DNA from: Eledone cirrhosa | Lineage: Eukaryota | DNA length: 64,000 nucleotides | Direction: 5' to 3' | NCBI GenBank assembly: GCA_964016885.1 | Contig: OZ024742.1 | Span: 204,910,001-204,974,000 of the forward strand | Shown here: positions 5,923 to 64,000 of the stretch, in pieces | How the letters are laid out: the number at the start of each line of letters is the position of its first letter | Position numbering within the stretch: position 1 is the first letter of the stretch | The notes under the pieces: generated by a model | What the model saw: only the letters and a program-made list of their open reading frames with translations | Database searches by the model: none | Told to the model about the DNA's origin: nothing | Made by a program: the position numbers and the translations under genes

Positions 5923-5993
<71 letters not shown>

Positions 5994-10750: not shown

Positions 10751-10954
10751 TATATATATATGTGTTTGTCTATATTGTATCTGTATTATTTTTGACCGCC
10801 GGTCAGTCAATGGCAACATTGAGGACCGAGTAAGTTAGATCGCAGATATATATATATAAAAGACAGCGAGAAGCGAAAACCAACCAAACAGTGAGTGTGT
10901 TCTGTTATTAATTCTGGCAATATTACGCAAATATGACCCTCCCCAAATATAACA

Positions 10955-11952
<998 letters not shown>

Positions 11953-17620: not shown

Positions 17621-18233
17621 GTAAGATGTTCTCTTAGAATTAAAATTTTTTTCATCATCAACATCATGGATTCTCGTTTTCATGTACAGGCATAATTGCA
17701 ATGGTATACATATTCTTACATTTTACATCCCTTCAACAACAGACTAGTCCTTCTTCATTTACTATTGCCTTTCCCCTCTAAAGTTTTACATTCAATGTTA
17801 GTACTTCAACATGCCATCATTAGTTTTCCAATGCACTACGTGTCATCTTACAATCCAAATATAGACGCAAATTCTAATTGAGCATGAAAATAGATAGACT
17901 GTGTGACTGGGACTCTCGATAGACTGTGTGACTGGGACATTAGATAGTCTGTCTGACTGGGACAGTAGATAGACTGTCTGACTGGGACAGTTGATAGACA
18001 GTCTGACTGGGAAGTAGATATACAGTTTGACTAGGACAGTAGATAGACTGTCTGACTGGGCCAGTTGATAGACAGTCAGACTGGGACAGTAGTTGGACTG
18101 TGTGACAGTAGTTAGACTGTGTGACTGTAGATAGACTGTAGATAGACTGTCTGACTGTGACAGTTGATAGACATTCTGACTGGGACAGTAGATAGACTGT
18201 CTGACTGACAGTAGATAGACAGTCAGGCTTAGA

Positions 18234-18342
18234 CACTAGGTAGACAATTATGAAAGGTAAATAATTTTATGTAAGACTTACATCCTTTTGTTTGTGTGTC
18301 TACTTCTCCATGTTTTCTATCTATATTTGTCTGTTTATCCAG
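18234..18342 (+). repeat. ~110-bp AT-rich non-monomer spacer (first of 27 copies)
   Basis: CACTAGGTAGACAATTATGAAAGGTAAAT...TTTGTCTGTTTATCCAG. Copies start near 18233, 20760/21241, 24099/24555, 29007, 31817/32273, 34614/35070, 37903/38359, 40701/41157, 43499/43955, 46272/46728, 49070/49526, 52285/52741, 55083/55539, 58323/58779 and 62134. Confidence 0.95.
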
Positions 18343-20351
18343 TAGATAGACTGGCTGACTGTGACAGTTGATAGACAGTCTGACTGGGACAGTAGATAGA
18401 TTGTCTGATTGGACCAGTAGATAGACTGTCTGACTGAGACAGTTGATAGACTGTCTGACTGAGACAGTTGATAGACTGTATGACTGGGACAGTTGATAGA
18501 CAGTTTAACTGGCACAGTAGATAGACTGGGACGGTAGATAGGCTGTCTGCCTGGGACAGTTCAGAGACAGTCTAGCTGGGACATTAGATAGACTTCTGAC
18601 TGGCCCAGTAGATAGACTGACTGACTGGGACACTTGATAGACTGTCTGACTGGGACAGTAGATAGACTGTCTAACTGGAACAGTAGATCGACTGTCTGTT
18701 TGACTGGGACAGTAAATAGACAGTGTAACTGGGACAGTTCATAGACAGTGTAACTGGGACATTAGTTAGACTGTCTGACTGGGACAGTAGATAGACTGTC
18801 TGACTGGGACAGTAGGTAGATAGTCTCACTGTGACAGTAGATAGATCGTCTGACTGGGAGAGTTCATAGACTTCTGACTGACAGTTCATAGACAGTCTAA
18901 CTGGGACATTAGATAGACTGACTGACTGGACCAGTAGATAGACTGTCTGACTGAGACAGTTGATAGACTGTCTGACTGAGACAGTTGATAGACTGTGTGA
19001 CTGGGACAGTTGATAGACAGTTTAACTGGCACAGTAGATAGACTGGGACGGTAGATAGACTGTCTGCCTGGGACAGTTCAGAGACAGTCTAGCTGGGACA
19101 TTAGATAGACTTCTGACTGGCCCAGTAGACAGACTGACTGAGACAGTTTATAGACTGTCTGACTGGGACACTTGATAGACTGTCTGACTGGGACAGTAGA
19201 TAGCCTGTCTAACTGGGACAGTAGATCGACTATCTGTTTGGGACAGTTCATAGACAGTGTAACTGGGACAGTTCATAGATAGTGTAACTGGGACATTAGT
19301 TAGGCTGTCTGACTGGGACATTAGATAGACTGTCTGACTGGGTCAGTCGATAGCCTGTCTGACTGAGACAGTTCATAGACAGTCTGACTGGGACAGTTGA
19401 TAGACTGTCTGACTGGGACAGTAGATAGACTGTTTGCCTGGGACAGTTCATAGACAGTGTAACTGGGACATTGGTTAGACTGTCTGACTGGGACAGTCTA
19501 TAGACAGTCTGACTGGGACAGTTGATAGGCTGTCTGACTGAGACAGTTGATAGACTGTCTGACTGGGACAGTTCATAGACAGTCTAACTGGGACATTAGA
19601 TAGACTATCTGACTGGGACAGTTCATAGACAGTCTAACTGGGACATTAGATAGACTGTCTGACTGGGACAGTTCATAGACAGTCTAACTGAGGCATTAGA
19701 TAGACTGTCTGACTGGGCCAGTAGATAGCCTGTCTAACTGGGACAGTAGATAGCCTGTCTGACTGGGACAATAGATAGACTGTCTGACTGGGACAGCGGC
19801 TAGACTGTCTAACTGGGACAGTTCATAGACAGTCTAACTGGGACATTAGATAGACTCTCTGACTGGGACAGTAGATAGACTGTTTGACTGTGACAGTTGA
19901 TTGACAGCCTGACTGGAACAGTTGATAGACTGTCTGACTGGGACAGTAGATAGACTGTATGCTTGGGACAGTTCATAGACAGTCTAACTGGGATATTACA
20001 TAAACTGTCTGACTGGGACAGTAGATAGACTGTCTGACTGAGACTATCAATAGAATGTGTGACTGGGACAGTTGATAGACAGTTTAAGTGCGACAGTAGA
20101 TAGACTGTCTGACTGGGACGGTAGATAAACCATATGACTGGGACAGTAGATAGACTGTCTGCCTGGGACAGTTCATAGACAATCTACCTGGGACATTAGA
20201 TAGACTTCTGACTGTGCCAGTAGATAGACTATCTGACTGAGACAGTTTATAGACTGTCTGACTGGGACAGTAGATAGACTGTCTGACTGGGACAGTTGAT
20301 AGACTGTCTGACTGGGACTCTTGATAGACTGTCTAACTGGGACAGTTCATA

Positions 20352-29300: not shown

Positions 29301-32300
29301 TCTGGGACAGTTCATACAAAGTCTACCTGGGATATTAGATAGACTGTCTGACTGATACAGTAGATGGACTGTCTGACTGGGATAGTAGATAGACTGTTTG
29401 ATTGGGACAGTAGTTAGACAGTTTGACTGGGACAGTAGATAGACAGTCTGGCTTGGACAGTAGATACACTGTCTGACTGGGACAGTAGATAGACAGTCTA
29501 ACTGGGACAGTAGATAGACAGTCTAACTGGAACAGTAGATAGACTGTCTAATTGGAACAGTAGATAGACTATGTGAATGGGACAGTTGATAGACAGTCTA
29601 ACTGGAACAGTAGATAAACTGTCTAACTGGAACAGTAGATAGACTGTCTAACTGGAACAGTAGATAGTCTATCTGACTGGGACAGTCGATAGGCTGTCTG
29701 TCTGGGACTGTTGATAGACAGTTTAACTGGGACAGTAGATAGACTGTTTGACTGGGACAGTTCATAGACAGTCTAACTGGGACATTAGATAGACTGTCGG
29801 ACTGAGACAGTAGATAGACTGTCTGACTGGGACAGTAGGTAGATAGTCTCACTGTGACAGTAAATAGACAGTCTGACTGGGAGAGTTGATAGACTGTCTG
29901 ACTGACAGTTGATAGACTGTCTGACTGACAGTTGATAGACTGTCTGACTGACAGTTCATAGACAGTCTAACTGGGGCATTAGATAGACTGTCTGACTGGA
30001 CCAGTAGATAAACTGTCTGACTGAGACAGTTGATAGACTGTGTGACTGGGACAGTTGATAGACAGTTCAACTGGGACAGTAGATAGACTGTCTAACTGGG
30101 ACAGTAGATAGACAGTCTAGCTGGGACAGTTGATAGACAGTCTAACTGGAACAGTAGATAGACTGTCTAACTGGAACAGTAGATAGACTGTCTCACTGGA
30201 ACAGTAGATAGACTGTCTAACTGGAACAGTAGATAGACTGTCTAACTGGAACAGTAGATAGACGGTCTAACTGGAACAGTAGATAGACTATGTGACTGGG
30301 ACAGTTGATAGACAGTTTAACTGGGACAGTAGATACACTGTCTGACTGGGACAGCGGCTAGACTGTCTAACTGGTACAGTTCATAGAAAGTTTAACTGGG
30401 ACAGTTCATAGACAGTCTAACTGGGACATTAGATGGACTCTCTGACTGGGACAGTAGATAGACTGTTTGACTGTGACAGTTGATTGACAGCCTGACTGGG
30501 ACAGTAGATAGATTGTCTGCTTGGGAGGGTTCATATACAGTCTAACTGGGATATTACATAAACTGTCTGACTGGGACAGTAGATAGACTGTCTGACTGAG
30601 ACAGTCAATAGACTGTGTGACTGGGACAGTTGATAGACAGTTTAACTGGGACAGTAGATAGACAGTCTGACTGGGACGGTAATAAACCATCTGACTGGGA
30701 CAGTTAATAGACTGTCTGTCTGGGACAGTTCATAGACAATCTACCTGGGACATTAGATAGACTTCTGACTGTGTCAGTAGATAGACTATATGACTGAGAC
30801 AGTTTATAGACTGTCTGACTGGGGCAGTAGATAGACTGTCTAACTGGAACAGTAGATCGACTGTCTGTTTGGGACAGTTCACAGACAGTGTAACTGGGAC
30901 AGTTCATAGACAGTGTAACTGGGACATTAGTTAGACTGTCTGACTGGCACATTAGATAGACTGTCTGACTGAGACAGTTCATAGACAGTCTGACTGGGAC
31001 AGTTGATAGACTGTCTGACTGGGACAGTAGATAGACTGTTTGCCTGGGACAGTTCATAGACATTGTAACTGGGACATTACATAGACTGTCTGACTGGGAC
31101 AGTAGATAGACAGTCTGACTGAGACAGTTGATAGACTGTCTTCCTGGGACAGTTCATAGACAGTCTAACTGGGACATTAGATAGACTGTCTGACTGGGAC
31201 AGTTCATAGACAGTCTAACTGGGACATTAGATAGCCTGTCTGACTGGGACAGTAGAAAGCCTGTCTGACTGGGACAGTAGATAGACTGTCTGACTGGGAC
31301 AGTTGATAGACTGTCTGACTGGGACTCTTGATAGACTGTCTAACTGGGACAGTTCATAGAAATTTTTAACAGGGACAGTTCTTAGACAGTCTAACTGGGA
31401 CATTAGATAGACTCTCTGACTGGCACAGTAGATAGACTGTCTGACTGTGACAGTTGATAGACAGCCTGGCTGGAACAGTTGATAGACTGTCTGACTGGGA
31501 CAGTAGATAGACTGTCTGACTGGGACAGTAGATAGACTGTGTGACTGTGACAGTAGATAGACTGTGTGACTGTGACAGTATATAGAATGTCTGCCTGGGA
31601 CAGTTCATAGACAGTCTAACTGGGACATTAGATAGACAGTCTGACTGGGACAGTAGATAGACTGTCTTACTGGGACAGTAGATAGACTGTGACAGTTGAT
31701 AGCCTGTCTGCCTGGGACAGTGCATAGACAGTCTAACTGGGACAACAGATAGACTGTCTGACTGGGACAGTAGATAGACAGTATGACTGGGACAGTAGAT
31801 AGACAGTCTGGTTGAGACACTAGGTAGACAATTATGAAAGGTAAATAATTTTATGTAAGACTTATATCCTTTTGTTTGTGTGTCTGCTTCTCCATGTTTT
31901 CTATCTATATTTGTCTGTTTATCCAGTAGATAGACTGTCTGACTCTGACAGTTGAAAGACAGTCTGACTGGGATAGTATATAGACTGTCTGACTGGGACA
32001 GTAGATAGACAGTGTGACTTGTACAGTAGATAGACTGTCTAACTGGAACAGTAGATAGACTCTCTGCCTGGGACAGTTCATAGACAGTCTACCTAAAACA
32101 TTAGATAGACTGTCTGACTGGGACAGTAGATAGACTGTGTGACTGGGACAGTTGCGAGACTGTCTGACTGGGATAGCGGATAGACTGTCTAACTGGGACA
32201 TTAGATACACTGTCTGACTTGGACAGTAGATAGACTGCCTGACTGTGATAGTTGATAGACAGTCTGACTGAGACACTAGGTAGACAATTATGAAAGGTAA

Positions 32301-35300
32301 ATAATTTTATGTAAGACTTATGTCCTTTTGTTTGTGTGTCTGCTTCTCCATGTTTTCTATCTATATTTGTCTGTTTATCCAGTAGATAGACTGTCTGACT
32401 GTGACAGTTGATAGACCATCTGACTGGGATAGTATATAGACTGTCTGACTGGGATGGTAGATAGACAGTGTGACTGGAACAGTAGATAGACAGTCTAACT
32501 GGGACAGTAGATAGACTGTCTAACTGGAACAGTAGATAGACTGTGTGACAGTAGATAGACTCTCTGTCTGGGACAGTTCATACAAAGTCTACCTGGGATA
32601 TTAGATAGACTGTCTGACTGATACAGTAGATGGACTGTCTGACTGGGATAGTAGATAGACTGTTTGATTGGGACAGTAGTTAGACAGTTTGACTGGGACA
32701 GTAGATAGACAGTCTGGCTGGGACAGTAGATACACTGTCTGACTGGGACAGTAGATAGACAGTCTAACTGGGACAGTAGATAGACAGTCTAATTGGAACA
32801 GTAGATAGACTATGTGAATGGGACAGTTGATAGACAGTCTAACTGGAACAGTAGATAAACTGTCTAACTGGAACAGTAGATAGACTGTCTAACTGGAACA
32901 GTAGATGGACAGTCTAACTGGGACAGTAGATAGACAGTCTAGCTGGGACAGTTGATAGACAGTCTAACTGGAACAGTAGATAGACTGTCTAACTGGAACA
33001 GTAGATAGACTGTCTAACTGGAACAGTAGATAGACGGTCTAACTGGAACAGTAGATAGACGGTCTAACTGGAACAGTAGATAGACTATGTGACTGGGACA
33101 GTTGATAGACAGTTTAACTGGGACAGTAGATACACTGTCTGACTGGGACAGCGGCTAGACTGTCTAACTGGTACAGTTCATAGAAAGTTTAACTGGGACA
33201 GTTCATAGACAGTCTAACTGGGACATTAGATGGACTCTCTGACTGGGACAGTAGATAGACTGTTTGACTGTGACAGTTGATTGACAGCCTGACTGGGACA
33301 GTAGATAGATTGTCTGCTTGGGAGGGTTCATATACAGTCTAACTGGGATATTACATAAACTGTCTGACTGGGACAGTAGATAGACTGTCTGACTGAGACA
33401 GTCAATAGACTGTGTGACTGGGACAGTTGATAGACAGTTTAACTGGGACAGTAGATAGACAGTCTGACTGGGACGGTAATAAACCATCTGACTGGGACAG
33501 TTAATAGACTGTCTGTCTGGGACAGTTCATAGACAATCTACCTGGGACATTAGATAGACTTCTGACTGTGTCAGTAGATAGACTATATGACTGAGACAGT
33601 TTATAGACTGTCTGACTGGGGCAGTAGATAGACTGTCTAACTGGAACAGTAGATCGACTGTCTGTTTGGGACAGTTCACAGACAGTGTAACTGGGACAGT
33701 TCATAGACAGTGTAACTGGGACATTAGTTAGACTGTCTGACTGGCACATTAGATAGACTGTCTGACTGAGACAGTTCATAGACAGTCTGACTGGGACAGT
33801 TGATAGACTGTCTGACTGGGACAGTAGATAGACTGTTTGCCTGGGACAGTTCATAGACATTGTAACTGGGACATTACATAGACTGTCTGACTGGGACAGT
33901 AGATAGACAGTCTGACTGAGACAGTTGATAGACTGTCTTCCTGGGACAGTTCATAGACAGTCTAACTGGGACATTAGATAGACTGTCTGACTGGGACAGT
34001 TCATAGACAGTCTAACTGGGACATTAGATAGCCTGTCTGACTGGGACAGTAGAAAGCCTGTCTGACTGGGACAGTAGATAGACTGTCTGACTGGGACAGT
34101 TGATAGACTGTCTGACTGGGACTCTTGATAGACTGTCTAACTGGGACAGTTCATAGAAATTTTTAACAGGGACAGTTCTTAGACAGTCTAACTGGGACAT
34201 TAGATAGACTCTCTGACTGGCACAGTAGATAGACTGTCTGACTGTGACAGTTGATAGACAGCCTGGCTGGAACAGTTGATAGACTGTCTGACTGGGACAG
34301 TAGATAGACTGTCTGACTGGGACAGTAGATAGACTGTGTGACTGTGACAGTAGATAGACTGTGTGACTGTGACAGTATATAGAATGTCTGCCTGGGACAG
34401 TTCATAGACAGTCTAACTGGGACATTAGATAGACAGTCTGACTGGGACAGTAGATAGACTGTCTTACTGGGACAGTAGATAGACTGTGACAGTTGATAGC
34501 CTGTCTGCCTGGGACAGTGCATAGACAGTCTAACTGGGACAACAGATAGACTGTCTGACTGGGACAGTAGATAGACAGTATGACTGGGACAGTAGATAGA
34601 CAGTCTGGTTGAGACACTAGGTAGACAATTATGAAAGGTAAATAATTTTATGTAAGACTTATATCCTTTTGTTTGTGTGTCTGCTTCTCCATGTTTTCTA
34701 TCTATATTTGTCTGTTTATCCAGTAGATAGACTGTCTGACTCTGACAGTTGAAAGACAGTCTGACTGGGATAGTATATAGACTGTCTGACTGGGACAGTA
34801 GATAGACAGTGTGACTTGTACAGTAGATAGACTGTCTAACTGGAACAGTAGATAGACTCTCTGCCTGGGACAGTTCATAGACAGTCTACCTAAAACATTA
34901 GATAGACTGTCTGACTGGGACAGTAGATAGACTGTGTGACTGGGACAGTTGCGAGACTGTCTGACTGGGATAGCGGATAGACTGTCTAACTGGGACATTA
35001 GATACACTGTCTGACTTGGACAGTAGATAGACTGCCTGACTGTGATAGTTGATAGACAGTCTGACTGAGACACTAGGTAGACAATTATGAAAGGTAAATA
35101 ATTTTATGTAAGACTTATGTCCTTTTGTTTGTGTGTCTGCTTCTCCATGTTTTCTATCTATATTTGTCTGTTTATCCAGTAGATAGACTGTCTGACTGTG
35201 ACAGTTGATAGACCATCTGACTGGGATAGTATATAGACTGTCTGACTGGGATGGTAGATAGACAGTGTGACTGGAACAGTAGATAGACAGTCTAACTGGG

Positions 35301-47300: not shown

Positions 47301-50300
47301 GAACAGTAGATAAACTGTCTAACTGGAACAGTAGATAGACTGTCTAACTGGAACAGTAGATGGACAGTCTAACTGGGACAGTAGATAGACAGTCTAGCTG
47401 GGACAGTTGATAGACAGTCTAACTGGAACAGTAGATAGACTGTCTAACTGGAACAGTAGATAGACTGTCTAACTGGAACAGTAGATAGACGGTCTAACTG
47501 GAACAGTAGATAGACGGTCTAACTGGAACAGTAGATAGACTATGTGACTGGGACAGTTGATAGACAGTTTAACTGGGACAGTAGATACACTGTCTGACTG
47601 GGACAGCGGCTAGACTGTCTAACTGGTACAGTTCATAGAAAGTTTAACTGGGACAGTTCATAGACAGTCTAACTGGGACATTAGATGGACTCTCTGACTG
47701 GGACAGTAGATAGACTGTTTGACTGTGACAGTTGATTGACAGCCTGACTGGGACAGTAGATAGATTGTGTGCTTGGGAGGGTTCATATACAGTCTAACTG
47801 GGATATTACATAAACTGTCTGACTGGGACAGTAGATAGACTGTCTGACTGAGACAGTCAATAGACTGTGTGACTGGGACAGTTGATAGACAGTTTAACTG
47901 GGACAGTAGATAGACAGTCTGACTGGGACGGTGGATAAACCATCGGACTGGGACAGTTAATAGACTGTCTGTCTGGGACAGTTCATAGACAATCTACCTG
48001 GGACATTAGATAGACTTCTGACTGTGTCAGTAGATAGACTATATGACTGAGACAGTTTATAGACTGTCTGACTCGGACAGTAGATAGACTGTCTAACTGG
48101 AACAGTAGATCGACTGTCTGTTTCGGACAGTTCACAGACAGTGTAACTGGGACAGTTCATAGACAGTGTAACTGGGACATTAGTTAGACTGTCTGACTGG
48201 GACATTAGATAGACTGTCTGACTGAGACAGTTCATAGACAGTCTGACTGGGACAGTTGATAGACTGTCTGACTGGGACAGTAGATAGACTGTTTGCCTGG
48301 GACAGTTCATAGACATTGTAACTGGGACATTACATAGACTGTCTGACTGGGACAGTAGATAGACAGTCTGACTGAGACAGTTGATAGACTGTCTTCCTGG
48401 GACAGTTCATAGACAGTCTAACTGGGACATCAGATAGACTGTCTGACTGGGACAGTTCATAGACAGTCTAACTGGGACATTAGATAGCCTGTCTGACTGG
48501 GACAGTAGAAAGCCTGTTTGACTGGGACAGTATATAGACTGTCTGACTGGGACAGTTGATAGACTGTCTGACTGGGACTCTTGATAGACTGTCTAACTGG
48601 GACAGTTCATAGAAATTTTTAACAGGGACAGTTCTTAGACAGTCTAACTGGGACATTAGATAGACTCTCTGACTGGCACAGTAGATAGACTGTCTGACTG
48701 TGACAGTTGATAGACAGCCTGGCTGGAACAGTTGATAGACTGTCTGACTGGGACAGTAGATAGACTGTCTGACTGGGACAGTAGATAGACTGTGTGACTG
48801 TGACAGTAGATAGACTGTGTGACTGTGACAGTATATAGAATGTCTGCCTGGGACAGTTCATAGACAGTCTAACTGGGACATTAGATAGACAGTCTGACTG
48901 GGACAGTAGATAGACTGTCTTACTGGGACAGTAGATAGACTGTGACAGTTGATAGCCTGTCTGCCTGGGACAGTGCATAGACAGTCTAACTGGGACAACA
49001 GATAGACTGTCTGACTGGGACAGTAGATAGACAGTATGACTGGGACAGTAGATAGACAGTCTGGTTGAGACACTAGGTAGACAATTATGAAAGGTAAATA
49101 ATTTTATGTAAGACTTATATCCTTTTGTTTGTGTGTCTGCTTCTCCATGTTTTCTATCTATATTTGTCTGTTTATCCAGTAGATAGACTGTCTGACTCTG
49201 ACAGTTGAAAGACAGTCTGACTGGGATAGTATATAGACTGTCTGACTGGGACAGTAGATAGACAGTGTGACTTGAACAGTAGATAGACTGTCTAACTGGA
49301 ACAGTAGATAGACTCTCTGCCTGGGACAGTTCATAGACAGTCTACCTAAAACATTAGATAGACTGTCTGACTGGGACAGTAGATAGACTGTGTGACTGGG
49401 ACAGTTGCGAGACTGTCTGACTGGGATAGCGGATAGACTGTCTAACTGGGACATTAGATACACTGTCTGACTTGGACAGTAGATAGACTGCCTGACTGTG
49501 ATAGTTGATAGACAGTCTGACTGAGACACTAGGTAGACAATTATGAAAGGTAAATAATTTTATGTAAGACTTATATCCTTTTGTTTGTGTGTCTGCTTCT
49601 CCATGTTTTCTATCTATATTTGTCTGTTTATCCAGTAGATAGACTGTCTGACTGTGACAGTTGATAGACCATCTGACTGGGATAGTATATAGACTGTCTG
49701 ACTGGGATGGTAGATAGACAGTGTGACTGGAACAGTAGATAGACAGTCTAACTGGGACAGTAGATAGACTGTCTAACTGGAACAGTAGATAGACTGTGTG
49801 ACAGTAGATAGACTCTCTGTCTGGGACAGTTCATACAAAGTCTACCTGGGATATTAGATAGACTGTCTGACTGATACAGTAGATGGACTGTCTGACTGGG
49901 ATAGTAGATAGACTGTTTGATTGGGACAGTAGTTAGACAGTTTGACTGGGACAGTAGATAGACAGTCTGGCTGGGACAGTAGATACACTGTCTGACTGGG
50001 ACAGTAGATAGACAGTCTAACTGGGACAGTAGATAGACAGTCTAACTGGAACAGTAGATAGACTGTCTAATTGGAACAGTAGATAGACTATGTGAATGGG
50101 ACAGTTGATAGACAGTCTAACTGGAACAGTAGATAAACTGTCTAACTGGAACAGTAGATAGACTGTCTAACTGGAACAGTAGATAGTCTATCTGACTGGG
50201 ACAGTCGATAGGCTGTCTGTCTGGGACTGTTGATAGACAGTTTAACTGGGACAGTAGATAGACTGTCTGACTGGGACAGTAGATAGACTGTTTGACTGGG

Positions 50301-53300
50301 ACAGTTCATAGACAGTCTAACTGGGACATTAGATAGACTGTCGGACTGAGACAGTAGATAGACTGTCTGACTGGGACAGTAGGTAGATAGTCTCACTGTG
50401 ACAGTAGATAGACAGTCTGACTGGGAGAGTTGATAGACTGTCTGACTGACAGTTGATAGACTGTCTGACTGACAGTTGATAGACTGTCTGACTGACAGTT
50501 CATAGACAGTCTAACTGGGGCATTAGATAGACTGTCTGACTGGACCAGTAGATAAACTGTCTGACTGAGACAGTTGATAGACTGTGACTGGGACAGTTGA
50601 TAGACAGTTCAACTGGGACAGTAGATAGACTGTCTAACTGGAACAGTAGATAGACTGTCTAACTGGAACAGTAGATAGACGGTCTAACTGGAACAGTAGA
50701 TAGACTGTCTAACTGGAACAGTAGATAGACGGTCTAACTGGAACAGTAGATAGACTATGTGACTGGGACAGTTGATAGACAGTTTAACTGGGACAGTAGA
50801 TACACTGTCTGACTGGGACAGCGGCTAGACTGTCTAACTGGTACAGTTCATAGAAAGTTTAACTGGGACAGTTCATAGACAGTCTAACTGGGACATTAGA
50901 TGGACTCTCTGACTGGGACAGTAGATAGACTGTTTGACTGTGACAGTTGATTGACAGCCTGACTGGGACAGTAGATAGATTGTCTGCTTGGGAGGGTTCA
51001 TATACAGTCTAACTGGGATATTACATAAACTGTCTGACTGGGACAGTAGATAGACTGTCTGACTGAGACAGTCAATAGACTGTGTGACTGGGACAGTTGA
51101 TAGACAGTTTAACTGGGACAGTAGATAGACAGTCTGACTGGGACGGTAGATAAACCATCTGACTGGGACAGTTAATAGACTGTCTGTCTGGGACAGTTCA
51201 TACACAATCTACCTGGGACATTAGATAGACTTCTGACTGTGTCAGTAGATAGACTATATGACTGAGACAGTTTATAGACTGTCTGACTGGGACAGTAGAT
51301 AGACTGTCTAACTGGAACAGTAGATCGACTGTCTGTTTGGGACAGTTCACAGACAGTGTAACTGGGACAGTTCATAGACAGTGTAACTGGGACATTAGTT
51401 AGACTGTCTGACTGGCACATTAGATAGACTGTCTGACTGAGACAGTTCATAGACAGTCTGACTGGGACAGTTGATAGACTGTCTGACTGGGACAGTAGAT
51501 AGACTGTTTGCCTGGGACAGTTCATAGACATTGTAACTGGGACATTACATAGACTGTCTGACTGGGACAGTAGATAGACAGTCTGACTGAGACAGTTGAT
51601 AGACTGTCTTCCTGGGACAGTTCATAGACAGTCTAACTGGGACATCAGATAGACTGTCTGACTGGGACAGTTCATAGACAGTCTAACTGGGACATTAGAT
51701 AGCCTGTCTGACTGGGACAGTAGAAAGCCTGTCTGACTGGGACAGTAGATAGACTGTCTGACTGGGACAGTTGATAGACTGTCTGACTGGGACTCTTGAT
51801 AGACTGTCTAACTGGGACAGTTCATAGAAATTTTTAACAGGGACAGTTCTTAGACAGTCTAACTGGGACATTAGATAGACTCTCTGACTGGCACAGTAGA
51901 TAGACTGTCTGACTGTGACAGTTGATAGACAGCCTGGCTGGAACAGTTGATAGACTGTCTGACTGGGACAGTAGATAGACTGTCTGACTGGGACAGTAGA
52001 TAGACTGTGTGACTGTGACAGTAGATAGACTGTGTGACTGTGACAGTATATAGAATGTCTGCCTGGGACAGTTCATAGACAGTCTAACTGGGACATTAGA
52101 TAGACAGTCTGACTGGGACAGTAGATAGACTGTCTTACTGGGACAGTAGATAGACTGTGACAGTTGATAGCCTGTCTGCCTGGGACAGTGCATAGACAGT
52201 CTAACTGGGACAACAGATAGACTGTCTGACTGGGACAGTAGATAGACAGTATGACTGGGACAGTAGATAGACAGTCTGGTTGAGACACTAGGTAGACAAT
52301 TATGAAAGGTAAATAATTTTATGTAAGACTTATATCCTTTTGTTTGTGTGTCTGCTTCTCCATGTTTTCTATCTATATTTGTCTGTTTATCCAGTAGATA
52401 GACTGTCTGACTCTGACAGTTGAAAGACAGTCTGACTGGGATAGTATATAGACTGTCTGACTGGGACAGTAGATAGACAGTGTGACTTGAACAGTAGATA
52501 GACTGTCTAACTGGAACAGTAGATAGACTCTCTGCCTGGGACAGTTCATAGACAGTCTACCTAAAACATTAGATAGACTGTCTGACTGGGACAGTAGATA
52601 GACTGTGTGACTGGGACAGTTGCGAGACTGTCTGACTGGGATAGCGGATAGACTGTCTAACTGGGACATTAGATAAACTGTCTGACTTGGACAGTAGATA
52701 GACTGCCTGACTGTGATAGTTGATAGACAGTCTGACTGAGACACTAGGTAGACAATTATGAAAGGTAAATAATTTTATGTAAGACTTATATCCTTTTGTT
52801 TGTGTGTCTGCTTCTCCATGTTTTCTATCTATATTTGTCTGTTTATCCAGTAGATAGACTGTCTGACTGTGACAGTTGATAGACCATCTGACTGGGATAG
52901 TATATAGACTGTCTGACTGGGATGGTAGATAGACAGTGTGACTGGAACAGTAGATAGACAGTCTAACTGGGACAGTAGATAGACTGTCTAACTGGAACAG
53001 TAGATAGACTGTGTGACAGTAGATAGACTCTCTGTCTGGGACAGTTCATACAAAGTCTACCTGGGATATTAGATAGACTGTCTGACTGATACAGTAGATG
53101 GACTGTCTGACTGGGATAGTAGATAGACTGTTTGATTGGGACAGTAGTTAGACAGTTTGACTGGGACAGTAGATAGACAGTCTGGCTGGGACAGTAGATA
53201 CACTGTCTGACTGGGACAGTAGATAGACAGTCTAACTGGGACAGTAGATAGACAGTCTAATTGGAACAGTAGATAGACTATGTGAATGGGACAGTTGATA

Positions 53301-56300
53301 GACAGTCTAACTGGAACAGTAGATAAACTGTCTAACTGGAACAGTAGATAGACTGTCTAACTGGAACAGTAGATGGACAGTCTAACTGGGACAGTAGATA
53401 GACAGTCTAGCTGGGACAGTTGATAGACAGTCTAACTGGAACAGTAGATAGACTGTCTAACTGGAACAGTAGATAGACTGTCTAACTGGAACAGTAGATA
53501 GACGGTCTAACTGGAACAGTAGATAGACGGTCTAACTGGAACAGTAGATAGACTATGTGACTGGGACAGTTGATAGACAGTTTAACTGGGACAGTAGATA
53601 CACTGTCTGACTGGGACAGCGGCTAGACTGTCTAACTGGTACAGTTCATAGAAAGTTTAACTGGGACAGTTCATAGACAGTCTAACTGGGACATTAGATG
53701 GACTCTCTGACTGGGACAGTAGATAGACTGTTTGACTGTGACAGTTGATTGACAGCCTGACTGGGACAGTAGATAGAGTGTGTGCTTGGGAGGGTTCATA
53801 TACAGTCTAACTGGGATATTACATAAACTGTCTGACTGGGACAGTAGATAGACTGTCTGACTGAGACAGTCAATAGACTGTGTGACTGGGACAGTTGATA
53901 GACAGTTTAACTGGGACAGTAGATAGACAGTCTGACTGGGACGGTGGATAAACCATCTGACTGGGACAGTTAATAGACTGTCTGTCTGGGACAGTTCATA
54001 GACAATCTACCTGGGACATTAGATAGACTTCTGACTGTGTCAGTAGATAGACTATATGACTGAGACAGTTTATAGACTGTCTGACTCGGACAGTAGATAG
54101 ACTGTCTAACTGGAACAGTAGATCGACTGTCTGTTTCGGACAGTTCACAGACAGTGTAACTGGGACAGTTCATAGACAGTGTAACTGGGACATTAGTTAG
54201 ACTGTCTGACTGGGACATTAGATAGACTGTCTGACTGAGACAGTTCATAGACAGTCTGACTGGGACAGTTGATAGACTGTCTGACTGGGACAGTAGATAG
54301 ACTGTTTGCCTGGGACAGTTCATAGACATTGTAACTGGGACATTACATAGACTGTCTGACTGGGACAGTAGATAGACAGTCTGACTGAGACAGTTGATAG
54401 ACTGTCTTCCTGGGACAGTTCATAGACAGTCTAACTGGGACATCAGATAGACTGTCTGACTGGGACAGTTCATAGACAGTCTAACTGGGACATTAGATAG
54501 CCTGTCTGACTGGGACAGTAGAAAGCCTGTTTGACTGGGACAGTATATAGACTGTCTGACTGGGACAGTTGATAGACTGTCTGACTGGGACTCTTGATAG
54601 ACTGTCTAACTGGGACAGTTCATAGAAATTTTTAACAGGGACAGTTCTTAGACAGTCTAACTGGGACATTAGATAGACTCTCTGACTGGCACAGTAGATA
54701 GACTGTCTGACTGTGACAGTTGATAGACAGCCTGGCTGGAACAGTTGATAGACTGTCTGACTGGGACAGTAGATAGACTGTCTGACTGGGACAGTAGATA
54801 GACTGTGTGACTGTGACAGTAGATAGACTGTGTGACTGTGACAGTATATAGAATGTCTGCCTGGGACAGTTCATAGACAGTCTAACTGGGACATTAGATA
54901 GACAGTCTGACTGGGACAGTAGATAGACTGTCTTACTGGGACAGTAGATAGACTGTGACAGTTGATAGCCTGTCTGCCTGGGACAGTGCATAGACAGTCT
55001 AACTGGGACAACAGATAGACTGTCTGACTGGGACAGTAGATAGACAGTATGACTGGGACAGTAGATAGACAGTCTGGTTGAGACACTAGGTAGACAATTA
55101 TGAAAGGTAAATAATTTTATGTAAGACTTATATCCTTTTGTTTGTGTGTCTGCTTCTCCATGTTTTCTATCTATATTTGTCTGTTTATCCAGTAGATAGA
55201 CTGTCTGACTCTGACAGTTGAAAGACAGTCTGACTGGGATAGTATATAGACTGTCTGACTGGGACAGTAGATAGACAGTGTGACTTGAACAGTAGATAGA
55301 CTGTCTAACTGGAACAGTAGATAGACTCTCTGCCTGGGACAGTTCATAGACAGTCTACCTAAAACATTAGATAGACTGTCTGACTGGGACAGTAGATAGA
55401 CTGTGTGACTGGGACAGTTGCGAGACTGTCTGACTGGGATAGCGGATAGACTGTCTAACTGGGACATTAGATACACTGTCTGACTTGGACAGTAGATAGA
55501 CTGCCTGACTGTGATAGTTGATAGACAGTCTGACTGAGACACTAGGTAGACAATTATGAAAGGTAAATAATTTTATGTAAGACTTATATCCTTTTGTTTG
55601 TGTGTCTGCTTCTCCATGTTTTCTATCTATATTTGTCTGTTTATCCAGTAGATAGACTGTCTGACTGTGACAGTTGATAGACCATCTGACTGGGATAGTA
55701 TATAGACTGTCTGACTGGGATGGTAGATAGACAGTGTGACTGGAACAGTAGATAGACAGTCTAACTGGGACAGTAGATAGACTGTCTAACTGGAACAGTA
55801 GATAGACTGTGTGACAGTAGATAGACTCTCTGTCTGGGACAGTTCATACAAAGTCTACCTGGGATATTAGATAGACTGTCTGACTGATACAGTAGATGGA
55901 CTGTCTGACTGGGATAGTAGATAGACTGTTTGATTGGGACAGTAGTTAGACAGTTTGACTGGGACAGTAGATAGACAGTCTGGCTGGGACAGTAGATACA
56001 CTGTCTGACTGGGACAGTAGATAGACAGTCTAACTGGGACAGTAGATAGACAGTCTAACTGGAACAGTAGATAGACTGTCTAATTGGAACAGTAGATAGA
56101 CTATGTGAATGGGACAGTTGATAGACAGTCTAACTGGAACAGTAGATAAACTGTCTAACTGGAACAGTAGATAGACTGTCTAACTGGAACAGTAGATAGT
56201 CTATCTGACTGGGACAGTCGATAGGCTGTCTGTCTGGGACTGTTGATAGACAGTTTAACTGGGACAGTAGATAGACTGTCTGACTGGGACAGTAGATAGA

Positions 56301-59300
56301 CTGTTTGACTGGGACAGTTCATAGACAGTCTAACTGGGACATTAGATAGACTGTCGGACTGAGACAGTAGATAGACTGTCTGACTGGGACAGTAGGTAGA
56401 TAGTCTCACTGTGACAGTAGATAGACAGTCTGACTGGGAGAGTTGATAGACTGTCTGACTGACAGTTGATAGACTGTCTGACTGACAGTTGATAGACTGT
56501 CTGACTGACAGTTCATAGACAGTCTAACTGGGGCATTAGATAGACTGTCTGACTGGACCAGTAGATAAACTGTCTGACTGGACCAGTAGATAAACTGTCT
56601 GACTGAGACAGTTGATAGACTGTGACTGGGACAGTTGATAGACAGTTCAACTGGGACAGTAGATAGACTGTCTAACTGGAACAGTAGATAGACTGTCTAA
56701 CTGGAACAGTAGATAGACGGTCTAACTGGAACAGTAGATAGACTGTCTAACTGGAACAGTAGATAGACGGTCTAACTGGAACAGTAGATAGACTATGTGA
56801 CTGGGACAGTTGATAGACAGTTTAACTGGGACAGTAGATACACTGTCTGACTGGGACAGCGGCTAGACTGTCTAACTGGTACAGTTCATAGAAAGTTTAA
56901 CTGGGACAGTTCATAGACAGTCTAACTGGGACATTAGATGGACTCTCTGACTGGGACAGTAGATAGACTGTTTGACTGTGACAGTTGATTGACAGCCTGA
57001 CTGGGACAGTAGATAGATTGTCTGCTTGGGAGGGTTCATATACAGTCTAACTGGGATATTACATAAACTGTCTGACTGGGACAGTAGATAGACTGTCTGA
57101 CTGAGACAGTCAATAGACTGTGTGACTGGGACAGTTGATAGACAGTTTAACTGGGACAGTAGATAGACAGTCTGACTGGGACGGTAGATAAACCATCTGA
57201 CTGGGACAGTTAATAGACTGTCTGTCTGGGACAGTTCATACACAATCTACCTGGGACATTAGATAGACTTCTGACTGTGTCAGTAGATAGACTATATGAC
57301 TGAGACAGTTTATAGACTGTCTGACTGGGACAGTAGATAGACTGTCTAACTGGAACAGTAGATCGACTGTCTGTTTGGGACAGTTCACAGACAGTGTAAC
57401 TGGGACAGTTCATAGACAGTGTAACTGGGACATTAGTTAGACTGTCTGACTGGCACATTAGATAGACTGTCTGACTGAGACAGTTCATAGACAGTCTGAC
57501 TGGGACAGTTGATAGACTGTCTGACTGGGACAGTAGATAGACTGTTTGCCTGGGACAGTTCATAGACATTGTAACTGGGACATTACATAGACTGTCTGAC
57601 TGGGACAGTAGATAGACAGTCTGACTGAGACAGTTGATAGACTGTCTTCCTGGGACAGTTCATAGACAGTCTAACTGGGACATCAGATAGACTGTCTGAC
57701 TGGGACAGTTCATAGACAGTCTAACTGGGATATTAGATAGCCTGTCTGACTGGGACAGTAGAAAGCCTGTCTGACTGGGACAGTAGATAGACTGTCTGAC
57801 TGGGACAGTTGATAGACTGTCTGACTGGGACTCTTGATAGACTGTCTAACTGGGACAGTTCATAGAAATTTTTAACAGGGACAGTTCTTAGACAGTCTAA
57901 CTGGGACATTAGATAGACTCTCTGACTGGCACAGTAGATAGACTGTCTGACTGTGACAGTTGATAGACAGCCTGGCTGGAACAGTTGATAGACTGTCTGA
58001 CTGGGACAGTAGATAGACTGTCTGACTGGGACAGTAGATAGACTGTGTGACTGTGACAGTAGATAGACTGTGTGACTGTGACAGTATATAGAATGTCTGC
58101 CTGGGACAGTTCATAGACAGTCTAACTGGGACATTAGATAGACAGTCTGACTGGGACAGTAGATAGACTGTCTTACTGGGACAGTAGATAGACTGTGACA
58201 GTTGATAGCCTGTCTGCCTGGGACAGTGCATAGACAGTCTAACTGGGACAACAGATAGACTGTCTGACTGGGACAGTAGATAGACAGTATGACTGGGACA
58301 GTAGATAGACAGTCTGGTTGAGACACTAGGTAGACAATTATGAAAGGTAAATAATTTTATGTAAGACTTATATCCTTTTGTTTGTGTGTCTGCTTCTCCA
58401 TGTTTTCTATCTATATTTGTCTGTTTATCCAGTAGATAGACTGTCTGACTCTGACAGTTGAAAGACAGTCTGACTGGGATAGTATATAGACTGTCTGACT
58501 GGGACAGTAGATAGACAGTGTGACTTGAACAGTAGATAGACTGTCTAACTGGAACAGTAGATAGACTCTCTGCCTGGGACAGTTCATAGACAGTCTACCT
58601 AAAACATTAGATAGACTGTCTGACTGGGACAGTAGATAGACTGTGTGACTGGGACAGTTGCGAGACTGTCTGACTGGGATAGCGGATAGACTGTCTAACT
58701 GGGACATTAGATACACTGTCTGACTTGGACAGTAGATAGACTGCCTGACTGTGATAGTTGATAGACAGTCTGACTGAGACACTAGGTAGACAATTATGAA
58801 AGGTAAATAATTTTATGTAAGACTTATATCCTTTTGTTTGTGTGTCTGCTTCTCCATGTTTTCTATCTATATTTGTCTGTTTATCCAGTAGATAGACTGT
58901 CTGACTGTGACAGTTGATAGACCATCTGACTGGGATAGTATATAGACTGTCTGACTGGGATGGTAGATAGACAGTGTGACTGGAACAGTAGATAGACAGT
59001 CTAACTGGGACAGTAGATAGACTGTCTAACTGGAACAGTAGATAGACTGTGTGACAGTAGATAGACTCTCTGTCTGGGACAGTTCATACAAAGTCTACCT
59101 GGGATATTAGATAGACTGTCTGACTGATACAGTAGATGGACTGTCTGACTGGGATAGTAGATAGACTGTTTGATTGGGACAGTAGTTAGACAGTTTGACT
59201 GGGACAGTAGATAGACAGTCTGGCTGGGACAGTAGATACACTGTCTGACTGGGACAGTAGATAGACAGTCTAACTGGGACAGTAGATAGACAGTCTAACT

Positions 59301-61277
59301 GGAACAGTAGATAGACTGTCTAATTGGAACAGTAGATAGACTATGTGAATGGGACAGTTGATAGACAGTCTAACTGGAACAGTAGATAAACTGTCTAACT
59401 GGAACAGTAGATAGACTGTCTAACTGGAACAGTAGATAGTCTATCTGACTGGGACAGTCGATAGGCTGTCTGTCTGGGACTGTTGATAGACAGTTTAACT
59501 GGGACAGTAGATAGACTGTCTGACTGGGACAGTAGATAGACTGTTTGACTGGGACAGTTCATAGACAGTCTAACTGGGACATTAGATAGACTGTCGGACT
59601 GAGACAGTAGATAGACTGTCTGACTGGGACAGTAGGTAGATAGTCTCACTGTGACAGTAGATAGACAGTCTGACTGGGAGAGTTGATAGACTGTCTGACT
59701 GACAGTTGATAGACTGTCTGACTGACAGTTGATAGACTGTCTGACTGACAGTTCATAGACAGTCTAACTGGGGCATTAGATAGACTGTCTGACTGGACCA
59801 GTAGATAAACTGTCTGACTGAGACAGTTGATAGACTGTGACTGGGACAGTTGATAGACAGTTCAACTGGGACAGTAGATAGACTGTCTAACTGGAACAGT
59901 AGATAGACTGTCTAACTGGAACAGTAGATAGACGGTCTAACTGGAACAGTAGATAGACTGTCTAACTGGAACAGTAGATAGACTGTCTAACTGGAACAGT
60001 AGATAGACGGTCTAACTGGAACAGTAGATAGACTATGTGACTGGGACAGTTGATAGACAGTTTAACTGGGACAGTAGATACACTGTCTGACTGGGACAGC
60101 GGCTAGACTGTCTAACTGGTACAGTTCATAGAAAGTTTAACTGGGACAGTTCATAGACAGTCTAACTGGGACATTAGATGGACTCTCTGACTGGGACAGT
60201 AGATAGACTGTTTGACTGTGACAGTTGATTGACAGCCTGACTGGGACAGTAGATAGATTGTCTGCTTGGGAGGGTTCATATACAGTCTAACTGGGATATT
60301 ACATAAACTGTCTGACTGGGACAGTAGATAGACTGTCTGACTGAGACAGTCAATAGACTGTGTGACTGGGACAGTTGATAGACAGTTTAACTGGGACAGT
60401 AGATAGACAGTCTGACTGGGACGGTAGATAAACCATCTGACTGGGACAGTTAATAGACTGTCTGTCTGGGACAGTTCATACACAATCTACCTGGGACATT
60501 AGATAGACTTCTGACTGTGTCAGTAGATAGACTATATGACTGAGACAGTTTATAGACTGTCTGACTGGGACAGTAGATAGACTGTCTAACTGGAACAGTA
60601 GATCGACTGTCTGTTTGGGACAGTTCACAGACAGTGTAACTGGGACAGTTCATAGACAGTGTAACTGGGACATTAGTTAGACTGTCTGACTGGCACATTA
60701 GATAGACTGTCTGACTGAGACAGTTCATAGACAGTCTGACTGGGACAGTTGATAGACTGTCTGACTGGGACAGTAGATAGACTGTTTGCCTGGGACAGTT
60801 CATAGACATTGTAACTGGGACATTACATAGACTGTCTGACTGGGACAGTAGATAGACAGTCTGACTGAGACAGTTGATAGACTGTCTTCCTGGGACAGTT
60901 CATAGACAGTCTAACTGGGACATCAGATAGACTGTCTGACTGGGACAGTTCATAGACAGTCTAACTGGGACATTAGATAGCCTGTCTGACTGGGACAGTA
61001 GAAAGCCTGTCTGACTGGGACAGTAGATAGACTGTCTGACTGGGACAGTTGATAGACTGTCTGACTGGGACTCTTGATAGACTGTCTAACTGGGACAGTT
61101 CATAGAAATTTTTAACAGGGACAGTTCTTAGACAGTCTAACTGGGACATTAGATAGACTCTCTGACTGGGACAGTAGATAGACTGTTTGACTGTGACAGT
61201 TGATTGACAGCCTGACTGGAACAGTTGATAGACTGTCTGACTGGGACAGTAGATAGACTGTCTGCTTGGGACAGTTC
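20352..61277. repeat. Higher-order repeat domain: short (~2773-2798 bp) and long (~3215-3289 bp, one 3515 bp) units
   Basis: Marker GAAATTTTTAACAGGG occurs at about 20352, 23641, 27156, 28601 and 31359. It then recurs at periods 2797, 3289, 2798, 2798, 2773, 2798, 3215, 2798, 3240, 3240, taken mainly from the recurring MHCPRQ ORF coordinates. Confidence 0.93.
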
Positions 61278-64000
61278 ATAGACAGTCTAACTGGGATATT
61301 ACATAAACTCTCTGACTGGGGCAGTAGATAGACTGTCTGACTGAGACAATCAATAGACTGTGTGACTGGGACAGTTGATAGACAGTGTAACTGCGACAGT
61401 AGATAGACTGTCTGTCTGGGACAGTAGATAGACTTTCTAACTGGAACAGTAGATAGACTGTCTGCCTGGGACAGTTCATAGACATTCTACCTGGGACATT
61501 AGATAGACTTCTGACTGGGCCAGTAGATAGACTATCTGACTGAGACAGTGTATAGACTGTCTCCTGGGACAGTAGATAGGCTGTCTGACTGGGACACTTG
61601 ATAGACTGTCTGACTGGGACAGTTGATAGGCAGTCTGACTGGGACAGTTGATAGACTGGCTGACTGGGTCAGCGCATAGACTGTCTAACTGGGACAGTTC
61701 ATAGAAAGATTAACTGGGCCAGTTCTTAGACAGTCTAACTGGGACATTAGATAGACTCTCTGACTGGGACAGTAGTTAGACTGTATGAGTGTGACAGTTG
61801 ATAGTCAGCCTGGCTGGAACAGTTGATAGACTGTCTGACTGGGACAGTAGATTGACTGGGACAGTAGATAGACTGTGTGACTGTGACAGTAGATAGACTG
61901 TGTGACTGTGACAGTATATAGAATGTCTGCCTGGGACAGTTCATAGACAGTCTAACTGGGACATTAGATAGACAGTCTGACTGGGACAGTAGCTAGACTG
62001 TGAAACTGACAGTTGATAGCCTGTCTGCCTGGGACAGTGCATAGACAGTCTAACTGCGACATTAGATAGACTGTCTGACTGGGACATTAGATAGACAGTA
62101 TGACTGGGACAGTAGATAGACATTCTGGCTGAGACACTAGGTAGACAATTATGAAAGGTAAATAATTTTATGTAAGACTTATATCCTTTTGTTTGTGTGT
62201 CTGCTTCTCCATGTTTTCTATCTGTTTATCCAGTAGATAGACTGTCTGACTGTGACAGTTGAAAGACAGTCTGACTGGGACAGAAGATAGACAGTGTGAC
62301 TTGAACAGTAGATAGACAGTCTAACTGGGACAGTAGATAGACTGTCTAACTGGAACAGTAGATAGACTGTGTGACAGTAGATAGACTCTCTGCCTAGGAC
62401 AGTTCATAGACAGTTTCCCTAAGACATTAGATAGACTGTCTGTCTGGGACAGTCATAGACTATCTGACTGAGACAGTTTATAGACTGTCTGCCTGGGACA
62501 CTTGATAGACAGTTTAACTGGGACAGTAGATAGAGTGCCTAACTGTGACAGTAGATAGACTCTCTTACTGGAACAGTAGATAGACTGTCTGTCTGGGACA
62601 GTTCATAGACAGTCTACCTGGGACATTAGATAGACTTCTGACTGGGCCAGTAGATAGACTGTCTGCCTGCGACAGTTCATAGACAATCTACCTGGCACAT
62701 TAGATAGACTTCTGACTGTGCCAGTAGATAGACTATCTGACTGAGACAGTTTATAGACTGTCTGACTGGGACAGTAGATAGACTGTCTGACTGGGACACT
62801 TGATAGACTGTCTGACTGGGACAGTAGATAGACTGTCTGTCTGGGACAGTTGATAGACAGTCTGACTGGGACAGTTGATAGACTGTCTGACTGGGACAGC
62901 GGATAGACTGTCTAACTGGGACAGTTCTTAGACAGTCTAACTGGGACATTAGATAGACTCTCTGACTGGGACAGTAGATAGACTGTCTGACTGTGACAGT
63001 TGATAGTCAGCCTGGCTGGAACAGTTGATAGACTGTCTGACTGGGACAGTAGATAGACTGTCTGACTGGGACAGTAGATAGACTGTGTGACTCTGACAGT
63101 AGATAGACTGTGTGACTGTGACAGTATATAGAATGTCTGCCTGGGACAGTTCATAGACAGTCTAACTGGGACATTAGATAGACAGTCTGACTGGGACAGT
63201 AGATAGACTGTGAAACTGTGACAGTTGATAGCCTGTCTGCCTGGGACAGTGCATAGACAGTCTAACTGCGACAGTGCATAGACAGTCTAACTGCGACATT
63301 AGATAGACTGTCTGACTGGGACAGTAGATAGACAGTATGACTGGGACAATTGATAGACTGTCTGACTGGGACAGCGGTTAGACTGTCTAACTGGGACAGT
63401 TCATAGAAAGTTTAACTGGGACAGTTCATAGACAGTTTAACTGGGACATTAGATAGACTCTCTGACTGGGACAGTAGATAGACTGTTTGACTGTGACAGT
63501 TGATAGACAGCCTGACTGGAACAGTTGATAGACTGTCTGACTGGGACATTAGATAGACAGTCTGACTGGGACAGTAGATAGACTGTCTTACTGGGACAGT
63601 ATATAGACTGTGAGACTGTGACAGTAGATAGACTGTCTGCCTGGGACAGTTCATAGACAGTCTAACTGGGACATTAGATAGACTGTCTAACTGGAACAGT
63701 AGATAGTCTATCTGACTGGGACAGTCGATAGGCTGTCTGTCTGGGACTGTTGATAGACAGTTTAACTGGGACAGTAGATAGACTGTCTGACTGGGACAGT
63801 AGATAGACTGTTTGACTGGGACAGTTCATAGACAGTCTAACTGGGACATTAGATAGACTGTCGGACTGGGACAGTAGATAGACTGTCTGACTGGGACAGT
63901 AGGTAGAATGTCTCACTGTGACAGTAGATAGACAGTCTGACTGGGAGAGTTGATAGACTGTCTGACTGACAGTTGATAGACTGTCTGACTGACAGTTCAT

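What the first reader, a model, noticed from the sequence alone, without database searches (positions are those of the whole stretch)
17621..64000. >46-kb higher-order satellite apparently inside an intron of a housekeeping mitoribosomal gene
Seen: the array begins ~270 bp after the donor, and no following exon (expected VKTF.E...-like) appears in the window. Known: satellite-filled giant introns are described mainly for Drosophila Y fertility genes. Inference: if the gene is intact, Pol II must cross the array in every cell, producing single-strand satellite RNA, and array length variation could tune DAP3 output.
Basis: partly seen in the sequence, partly recalled or inferred. Interest (0 to 1): 0.75.

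Follow-up and report, generated by a model that had tools for sequence, protein, structure and literature searches.

The report
87-kb private satellite inside octopod DAP3
An intact, single-copy gene for a mitochondrial ribosome protein in an octopus relative has one 91-kb intron that is 95% a 25-letter repeat found nowhere else in the genome, and a transcript-like sequence joins the exons correctly across it; the repeat likely grew in place and is likely tolerated rather than useful, and repeat blocks this large are common in this genome.

Summary
Confirmed and extended. The exon at 17,516-17,620 is coding exon 2 of DAP3/mS29. The gene has 12 coding exons and an open 403-aa frame, is 84% identical to Octopus vulgaris, and maps to one locus. 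The next exon lies 91,496 bp downstream. An 87-kb gap-free array of a 25-bp unit (about 3,330 monomers) fills 95% of this intron. Its 2.8-3.3 kb higher-order repeats are 99.5-99.9% alike. All 1,549 genome matches of the unit lie here. A public transcript-like contig joins exons 1-2-3 exactly, and short-read depth roughly supports the array size. Thirty-six internal copies of the array's own right flank point to growth in place. A second species carries the same unit, likely at the same spot. No sign of function was found: splice-like sites are no denser than in ordinary introns, and 8 of 59 arbitrary 10-kb samples of this genome lie wholly in other giant arrays. Intronic repeat expansions are published for birds, human and C. 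elegans, at smaller sizes where a size was seen. Unchecked scan notes report the same build in other genes of this genome. Length tuning of DAP3 output is untested.

The parts
17516..17620 (+). DAP3/mS29 coding exon 2 (105 nt, phase 0/0). Outside the window: coding exon 1 at G000:C3:204,865,689-204,865,868 (61.6 kb upstream), exon 3 at 205,019,117-205,019,225, last (12th) coding exon at 205,063,012-205,063,097
   Evidence: covered exactly by the X4 contig, which joins it to exons 1 and 3
17621..64000 (+). 5' part of the 91,496-bp GT-AG intron (ends outside the window at G000:C3:205,019,116, window-equivalent 109,116)
17621..17890 (+). 270 bp of unique intron between donor and array; also present in organism B at about 86-88% identity
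17891..64000 (+). Locus-private 25-bp satellite. Whole array 87,189 bp, running outside the window to window-equivalent 105,078; about 3,330 monomers, 88% mean identity to consensus, GC skew +0.24, CpG o/e 0.08
29900..59000 (+). Homogenised higher-order core: units of 2,773-3,289 bp, neighbours 99.5-99.9% alike outside gaps (8 pairs compared)
18236..18342 (+). First of 36 internal copies (27 inside the window) of a ~105-bp AT-rich spacer copied from the array's right flank; each internal copy reads as a 76-124-nt GT...AG cassette (86 nt in most). The native copy lies outside the window (window-equivalent about 104,973-105,078), runs on into unique flank and has no AG at its end

Best explanation
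A short 25-bp minisatellite in intron 2 of the intact octopod DAP3 gene likely grew in place to 87 kb and is likely tolerated as a passenger: polymerase would read through it, and the exons on either side are found correctly joined in a transcript-like contig. Shown: the gene is intact and maps to one locus; the intron is 91.5 kb; the unit is private to this intron; the array holds 36 copies of its own right flank; the centre is homogenised and the ends are diverged; the spliced joint exists. Inferred: an early tandem duplication had one break in the flank, about 100 bp past the array, and one inside a unit (a 2-base microhomology at the joint). Unequal exchange or slippage then built the 2.8-3.3 kb higher-order repeats, perhaps helped by the unit's partial palindromy. 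Inferred: the cell copes because the sequence is poor in poly(A) signals, CpG and acceptor-like sites.
For: Intact ORF with 11 GT-AG introns, 337 of 403 residues identical to O. vulgaris. All 12 matches (22 of 22 candidates scored) are at this locus. The X4 contig covers exactly 17,516-17,620, with loose ends equal to the end of exon 1 and the start of exon 3. 1,549 of 1,549 genome matches at up to 2 mismatches lie in the array. The first spacer copy sits 350 bp from the left end and shares the native flank's variant, while core copies share a different one. Unique 60-mers make up 42% and 92% of the end bins and 0-4% of the core. The array has 4 AATAAA in 87 kb against 57 in the 62-kb intron 1. 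Donor-like sites: 0.42/kb against 0.38/kb in ordinary introns; acceptor-like sites: 0.41/kb against 1.57/kb. 8 of 59 arbitrary 10-kb stretches are wholly one array, each with an unrelated unit, and 5 of these 8 span at least 110 kb by spot probes.
Against: Organism B, about 12% diverged in the neighbouring DNA, carries the same unit at very high summed depth, and its exon-2 contig ends about 35 nt past the array start. Long persistence at one site is not what a fast-turnover passenger must show, though it does not exclude it. The unit folds better than column-shuffled tandem controls (0, 1 and 1 of 40 controls as good). Absence of function was not tested. Whether the 8 sampled arrays lie inside genes was not checked. 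Run X4 is not on record as RNA; its nature is inferred from its spliced joints.
Confidence: 0.76

Rival explanations
1. The array regulates DAP3: its length delays or dampens transcription, or it acts as an enhancer, so alleles of different length tune mitoribosome supply.
For: It makes up 44% of the 197-kb coding span. The CACNA1C intronic 30-mer array has allele-dependent enhancer activity in reporters (10.1101/311795, abstract and passages). The unit is likely kept in a second species.
Against: No expression or allele data. Arrays of this size are common in this genome, so its presence needs no special cause. Intron 1 of the same gene is 61.6 kb without a giant array.
Confidence: 0.1
2. The array helps its own removal: self-complementary units fold the nascent RNA back on itself, and the 36 GT...AG spacer cassettes serve as stepping stones for piecewise (nested) splicing.
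For: The spacer donor scores 8/9 against the donor consensus (recalled), as high as the best real donors of the gene. Its acceptor tract (0.70-0.75 pyrimidine) equals or exceeds that of the true exon-3 acceptor (0.70). A 300-nt piece folds at z -6.4 against dinucleotide shuffles, and three 250-nt pieces at z -1.7 to -2.6 against tandem-preserving controls.
Against: Such sites are no denser than in ordinary introns. The acceptor is not followed by GT, so it is not a canonical recursive site. The AG arises from the joint with a unit that holds several AGs. Organism B shows the unit but no spacer cover. The 14 short acceptor-to-donor segments (370-520 nt) all carry 11-19 stops in frame 0, so their use as exons would be harmful.
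Confidence: 0.07
3. Assembly artefact: the array is mis-inserted or many times over-expanded, and the true intron is short.
For: Core units are 99.5-99.9% alike, which is hard to assemble exactly. No long read spanning the array was seen.
Against: No N in the 284 kb examined. The unit exists nowhere else in the assembly. In run X1 the spacer contig has depth 187 against 5.9 for a single-copy flank contig, a ratio of about 32, where the assembly predicts 27. X1 holds the spacer-to-satellite joint. The tool warns that contig depth is not a copy number, the single-copy value rests on one contig, and X1 may be the assembled animal.
Confidence: 0.05

Closest known systems
Intronic 'sequence stuttering' in avian dot-chromosome genes (Hron et al. 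2026, PMC12954441; abstract, part 1 of section 7 and passages read)
   Same: Locally born imperfect tandem repeats of tens of bases confined to single introns, coding exons intact, unique local sequence swept into the expansion.
   Different: There it is tied to GC-rich dot chromosomes and shown to vary in length between birds. Here it is an 87-kb array of 44% GC in the middle of a 379-Mb scaffold, with near-identical kilobase higher-order repeats. The captured piece is intronic flank, not exon. Length variation is untested.
Human CACNA1C intron-3 30-mer repeat (Song, Lowe, Kingsley; 10.1101/311795; abstract and passages)
   Same: Single-locus minisatellite of similar unit length, grown in place inside a large intron, with patterned unit variants and splice-like sites.
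   Different: 3 to 30+ kb, mostly about 6 kb, human-specific and with measured enhancer activity. This array is 87 kb, fills 95% of its intron, is likely shared with a second species, and has no measured activity.
Drosophila Y-loop genes kl-3, kl-5 (PMC6508621 and PMC11207136; abstracts and outlines only)
   Same: Conserved coding exons separated by a satellite-filled intron that polymerase must cross.
   Different: Those introns are megabases of simple satellite, transcribed over about 90 h in spermatocytes with dedicated RNA-binding proteins. This one is far smaller, has a private 25-bp unit, and sits in a mitoribosomal gene expected to be on in all cells (recalled, not measured).
C. elegans introns filled with tandem repeats (CGC1 assembly; 10.1101/2024.12.04.626850; passages)
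   Same: 113 introns of 1 kb or more are at least 80% tandem repeat; the authors call transcription of intronic repeats commonplace.
   Different: The passages seen use thresholds of 1-5 kb and give no intron near this size; higher-order structure and flank capture are not described in them.
DAP3 / mS29 (Pfam PF10236)
   Same: The host gene is an ordinary full-length member: 83.6% identical to O. vulgaris, 74.9% to Argonauta hians.
   Different: Nothing unusual was seen in the protein.

Membership tests
DAP3/mS29 gene (intact) | PF10236 domain with P-loop, and similarity to solved mS29 | tested here: met
   PF10236 33.4 bits, over the cut-off, on exon 4; exon 3 matches 9 PDB sequences, all mS29/DAP3
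DAP3/mS29 gene (intact) | Complete open frame with canonical splice sites | tested here: met
   1,212 nt, 403 aa, 11 of 11 introns GT-AG
DAP3/mS29 gene (intact) | Only copy in the genome | tested here: met
   12 matches, 22 of 22 candidates scored, all at this locus; the assembly may be incomplete
DAP3/mS29 gene (intact) | Spliced across the array | tested here: met
   One contig of run X4 joins exons 1-2-3; one sample, run kind not on record
Higher-order satellite array | Diverged monomers grouped in near-identical multi-monomer units | tested here: met
   Monomers 88% to consensus; 2.8-3.3 kb units 99.5-99.9% alike; the right half has irregular periods
Locus-specific intronic minisatellite expansion / intronic stuttering | Local origin, confined to one intron, exons untouched | tested here: met
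   1,549 of 1,549 matches in this intron; own flank captured
Locus-specific intronic minisatellite expansion / intronic stuttering | Extensive length variation between individuals | not testable with these tools
   No long reads of several animals; the one RAD run laid gave 2 reads on the spacer
Avian sequence stuttering in the strict sense | GC-rich dot-chromosome setting; exon fragments sometimes copied | tested here: not met
   Array about 44% GC, flanks mostly 30-45%, on a 379-Mb scaffold; the captured piece is intronic
Drosophila Y-loop-type intron gigantism | Megabase introns of simple satellite | tested here: not met
   91.5 kb, 25-bp private unit
Drosophila Y-loop-type intron gigantism | Dedicated expression programme (special RNA-binding proteins, long transcription window) | not testable with these tools
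   No nascent RNA or genetics
Canonical recursive splicing | Polypyrimidine tract plus AG directly followed by GT | tested here: not met
   In all 36 internal spacer copies the acceptor is followed by a satellite unit starting with TA

The most novel reading that the evidence does not exclude
This octopod lineage routinely transcribes and splices 100-kb private satellites inside everyday genes. The DAP3 array is old and kept at the same spot across species, and it assists its own removal (fold-back RNA, 36 donor-acceptor cassettes) or sets transcript output by its length. That would be intron gigantism as a genome-wide somatic trait rather than a germ-line oddity.
Probability: 0.13. Interest if true: 0.75.

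Novelty: new variant of a known kind. Interest (0 to 1): 0.42.

Why it matters
The locus shows that a gene for a core mitoribosomal protein can carry 87 kb of private, higher-order satellite in one intron and still give a correctly joined transcript. Whether satellite DNA blocks somatic transcription could thus be tested outside fly testes. The captured flank copies act as markers that record how the array grew. The wider point is the genome. About 14% of sampled positions (8 of 59; 95% interval 6-25%) lie in giant arrays with mutually unrelated units. My literature searches did not return this for a cephalopod. As a single locus it is one example among likely many.

Tried and rejected
Orphan exon or pseudogene: rejected. 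Coding repeat: the + strand has no open frame above 57 codons; the - strand reaches 241 codons only because the consensus unit has no stop there, so this was not taken as a gene. Canonical recursive sites: not present at the spacers. Enrichment of decoy splice sites: not found. Strand bias of poly(A) signals as a sign of selection: AATAAA 4 sense against 1 antisense, so none. Hairpin-forming units as a general trait of the genome's arrays: only 3 of 8 other arrays fold better than controls at z below -1.5, and 3 of 8 fold clearly worse. The z of -6.4 from dinucleotide shuffles overstates folding, because the shuffles destroy the tandem structure. No RNA holder was listed as such. X4 showed no contig on satellite units or spacer; contigs drop rare forms, so this says nothing about nascent or mis-spliced RNA. 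X1 and X3 had no cover over exon 2 and X1 none over much of the right flank; holes prove nothing. A word-indexed homologue search with exon 3 found nothing; the profile search did. My first exon model had three boundary slips, corrected. A paper search for a U12 intron in DAP3 gave one irrelevant hit. The O. vulgaris repeat paper PMC13282606 has no 'satellite' or 'intron' in its main text (supplements not seen). No scan notes lie near this locus.
Full report
Observation. The array is real. TRF gives one 25-bp array from 17,891 to the window end, starting 270 bp after a GT donor at 17,621. The window is G000:C3:204,910,001-204,974,000 in a 3.0-Gb assembly. Neighbouring stretches show the array running on to window-equivalent 105,078, with no N in the 284 kb examined. 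It is 87,189 bp long, holds about 3,330 monomers, and the 3,072 in-register monomers are 88% identical to the consensus.

Host gene. A PF10236 search hit an exon 47 kb beyond the window. The exon that follows the array lies at window-equivalent 109,117-109,225 and matches solved mS29 at E 1.6e-7. Using O. vulgaris DAP3 (P0024), all 12 matches in the genome fall at this locus, with 22 of 22 candidates scored. The 12 coding exons give an open 403-aa frame with 11 GT-AG introns, 337 of 403 residues identical to O. vulgaris and 302 to Argonauta. The animal is therefore an octopod (inference). The satellite intron is 91,496 bp, phase 0/0. Intron 1 is 61,647 bp and the other nine are 1.2-13 kb. That mS29 is needed in all cells is established knowledge, not measured here.

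Splicing. Run X4 (88 million letters of contigs, kind not on record) has one 1,423-nt contig at depth 59 that covers exactly 17,516-17,620. Its loose ends are the last bases of exon 1 and the first bases of exon 3. The joined form therefore exists. A processed DNA copy is unlikely, because none is in the assembly. This is one sample, and nascent RNA over the array was not seen.

Is the size right? In run X1 the spacer contig has depth 187 and a single-copy flank contig 5.9, a ratio near 32. The assembly predicts a mean 31-mer multiplicity of 27 for that piece. X1 also holds the spacer-to-satellite joint. This is rough: contig depth is not a copy number, and X1 may come from the assembled animal. 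It still argues against a many-fold error.

Anatomy and growth. The unit is private: 164 of 164 exact and 1,549 of 1,549 two-mismatch matches in the genome lie in this array, all on one strand. The core (about 30-59 kb) has higher-order units of 2,773-3,289 bp, and neighbours are 99.5-99.9% alike. The right half has irregular periods, and both ends are diverged. A ~105-bp AT-rich spacer occurs 37 times. The last copy continues into unique flank, so the 36 internal copies are captures of the array's own right flank. The first copy lies only 350 bp from the left end and shares the native variant. The simplest history, which is inferred, runs as follows: a short minisatellite; a tandem duplication with one break in the flank and one in a unit; then repeated unequal exchange. 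The unit is partly palindromic and folds somewhat better than tandem-preserving controls, which may have helped, but most other arrays do not share this.

Why it is tolerated (inferred). The array has 4 AATAAA in 87 kb, CpG o/e 0.08 and a G-rich sense strand. Each internal spacer reads as a small GT...AG cassette, with a donor as good as the gene's best real ones and an acceptor tract equal to or better than that of exon 3. Yet such sites are no denser than in ordinary introns of this gene (0.42 against 0.38 donors/kb; 0.41 against 1.57 acceptors/kb), and none is a canonical recursive site. They look like by-products.

A second species. Run X5 (organism B) has a contig over exon 2 and the 5' intron at about 86-88% identity. 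It ends 41 nt past 17,885, about 35 nt into where the array begins, as a 31-mer contig would if a repeat began there. X5 also holds short contigs of the same unit at summed depth above 10,000, against about 15-20 for single-copy pieces, and has no cover over the spacer. The array is thus likely older than the split and the flank capture possibly younger. The link between unit and locus in B is inferred, not read.

Background. I asked for 60 ten-kb stretches at round-number positions and got 59, with 38 from the three largest scaffolds. Eight are wholly one tandem array (13.6%, interval 6-25%), and tandem repeats cover 34% of the sample. The eight units are unrelated to each other and to this one. 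Spot probes put five at 110 kb or more, three of them at 210 kb or more, assuming continuity between probes. The sample is not random, favours long arrays, and was not checked for genes. Still, an 87-kb array is ordinary for this genome. Unchecked scan notes describe satellite-filled introns in VPS15, an SLC22, ENTR1, SRA1, LHPP and SHOC1 of the same genome; I did not test those loci. Two of those notes gave me the leads to the avian and CACNA1C papers.

Known relatives. Closest are intronic stuttering in chicken dot-chromosome genes (PMC12954441; abstract, part of section 7, passages) and the CACNA1C 30-mer of 3-30+ kb (10.1101/311795; abstract, passages). C. elegans has 113 introns that are at least 80% repeat (10.1101/2024.12.04.626850; passages). 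The Drosophila Y genes (PMC6508621, PMC11207136; abstracts and outlines) are megabase-scale and germ-line. This case works like the first two. It differs in size, in regular higher-order structure and in its setting, and it fails the size test for Y-loop membership. Searches returned no paper on such arrays in cephalopod introns; the library lacks most subscription journals, and supplements were not read.

Verdict. Real, spliced, and most likely a tolerated local expansion (0.76). Regulation by length (0.10), self-assisted splicing (0.07) and assembly error (0.05) remain open. Interest 0.42: a clean, well-marked example of a striking genome-wide trait, with no evidence of function at this locus.

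Noticed in passing
G000:C3:205,019,226-205,021,231 (window-equivalent 109,226-111,231): The 2,006-bp intron right after the satellite intron starts GTATCCTT and has TTCCTTGAC shortly before its AG. This fits the U12 minor-intron donor and branch consensus (recalled). Exon 3 would then be flanked by a 91-kb major intron and a minor intron. One paper search found nothing on a U12 intron in DAP3.
   Followed up: partly
window 5,846-8,044 and 9,164-11,347: A 2.2-kb inverted repeat (96% by BLAST, AT microsatellites included) inside DAP3 intron 1, around what looks by eye like a reverse-transcriptase retroelement, perhaps Penelope-like (not tested). A second inverted pair of 322 bp lies at 1,755-2,073 and 2,590-2,911.
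   Followed up: no
DAP3 intron 1 (about 10.3-13.5 kb and 7.8-8.5 kb into it) and L006:2450-3230: Smaller minisatellites in the same gene: an 84-bp unit over about 3 kb, a 33-bp unit over 0.7 kb, and a 32-bp-based unit over 0.8 kb. They may be seeds of the same process.
   Followed up: no
L041, L044, L053, L059, L061, L075, L079, L082: Eight further giant arrays with units of 35, 27, 23, 16, 19, 16, 19 and 48 bp on six scaffolds; three span at least 210 kb by probes. Probes L102, L104 and L108, 110 kb from three of them, fell in yet other tandem repeats.
   Followed up: partly
G000:C3:204,865,665-204,865,688: Coding exon 1 begins 24 nt before the ATG at an acceptor site, and the X4 contig has 477 nt before exon 2. 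At least one non-coding exon therefore likely lies further upstream, and the gene is longer than 197 kb.
   Followed up: no
window-equivalent about 120,800-121,200 and 216,800-217,300 (L007, L017), and 164,000-176,000 (L011-L013): Near-identical retroelement-like reading frames recur about 96 kb apart, and LTR-retrotransposon pol-like frames lie downstream of the gene (seen by eye in the translations).
   Followed up: no
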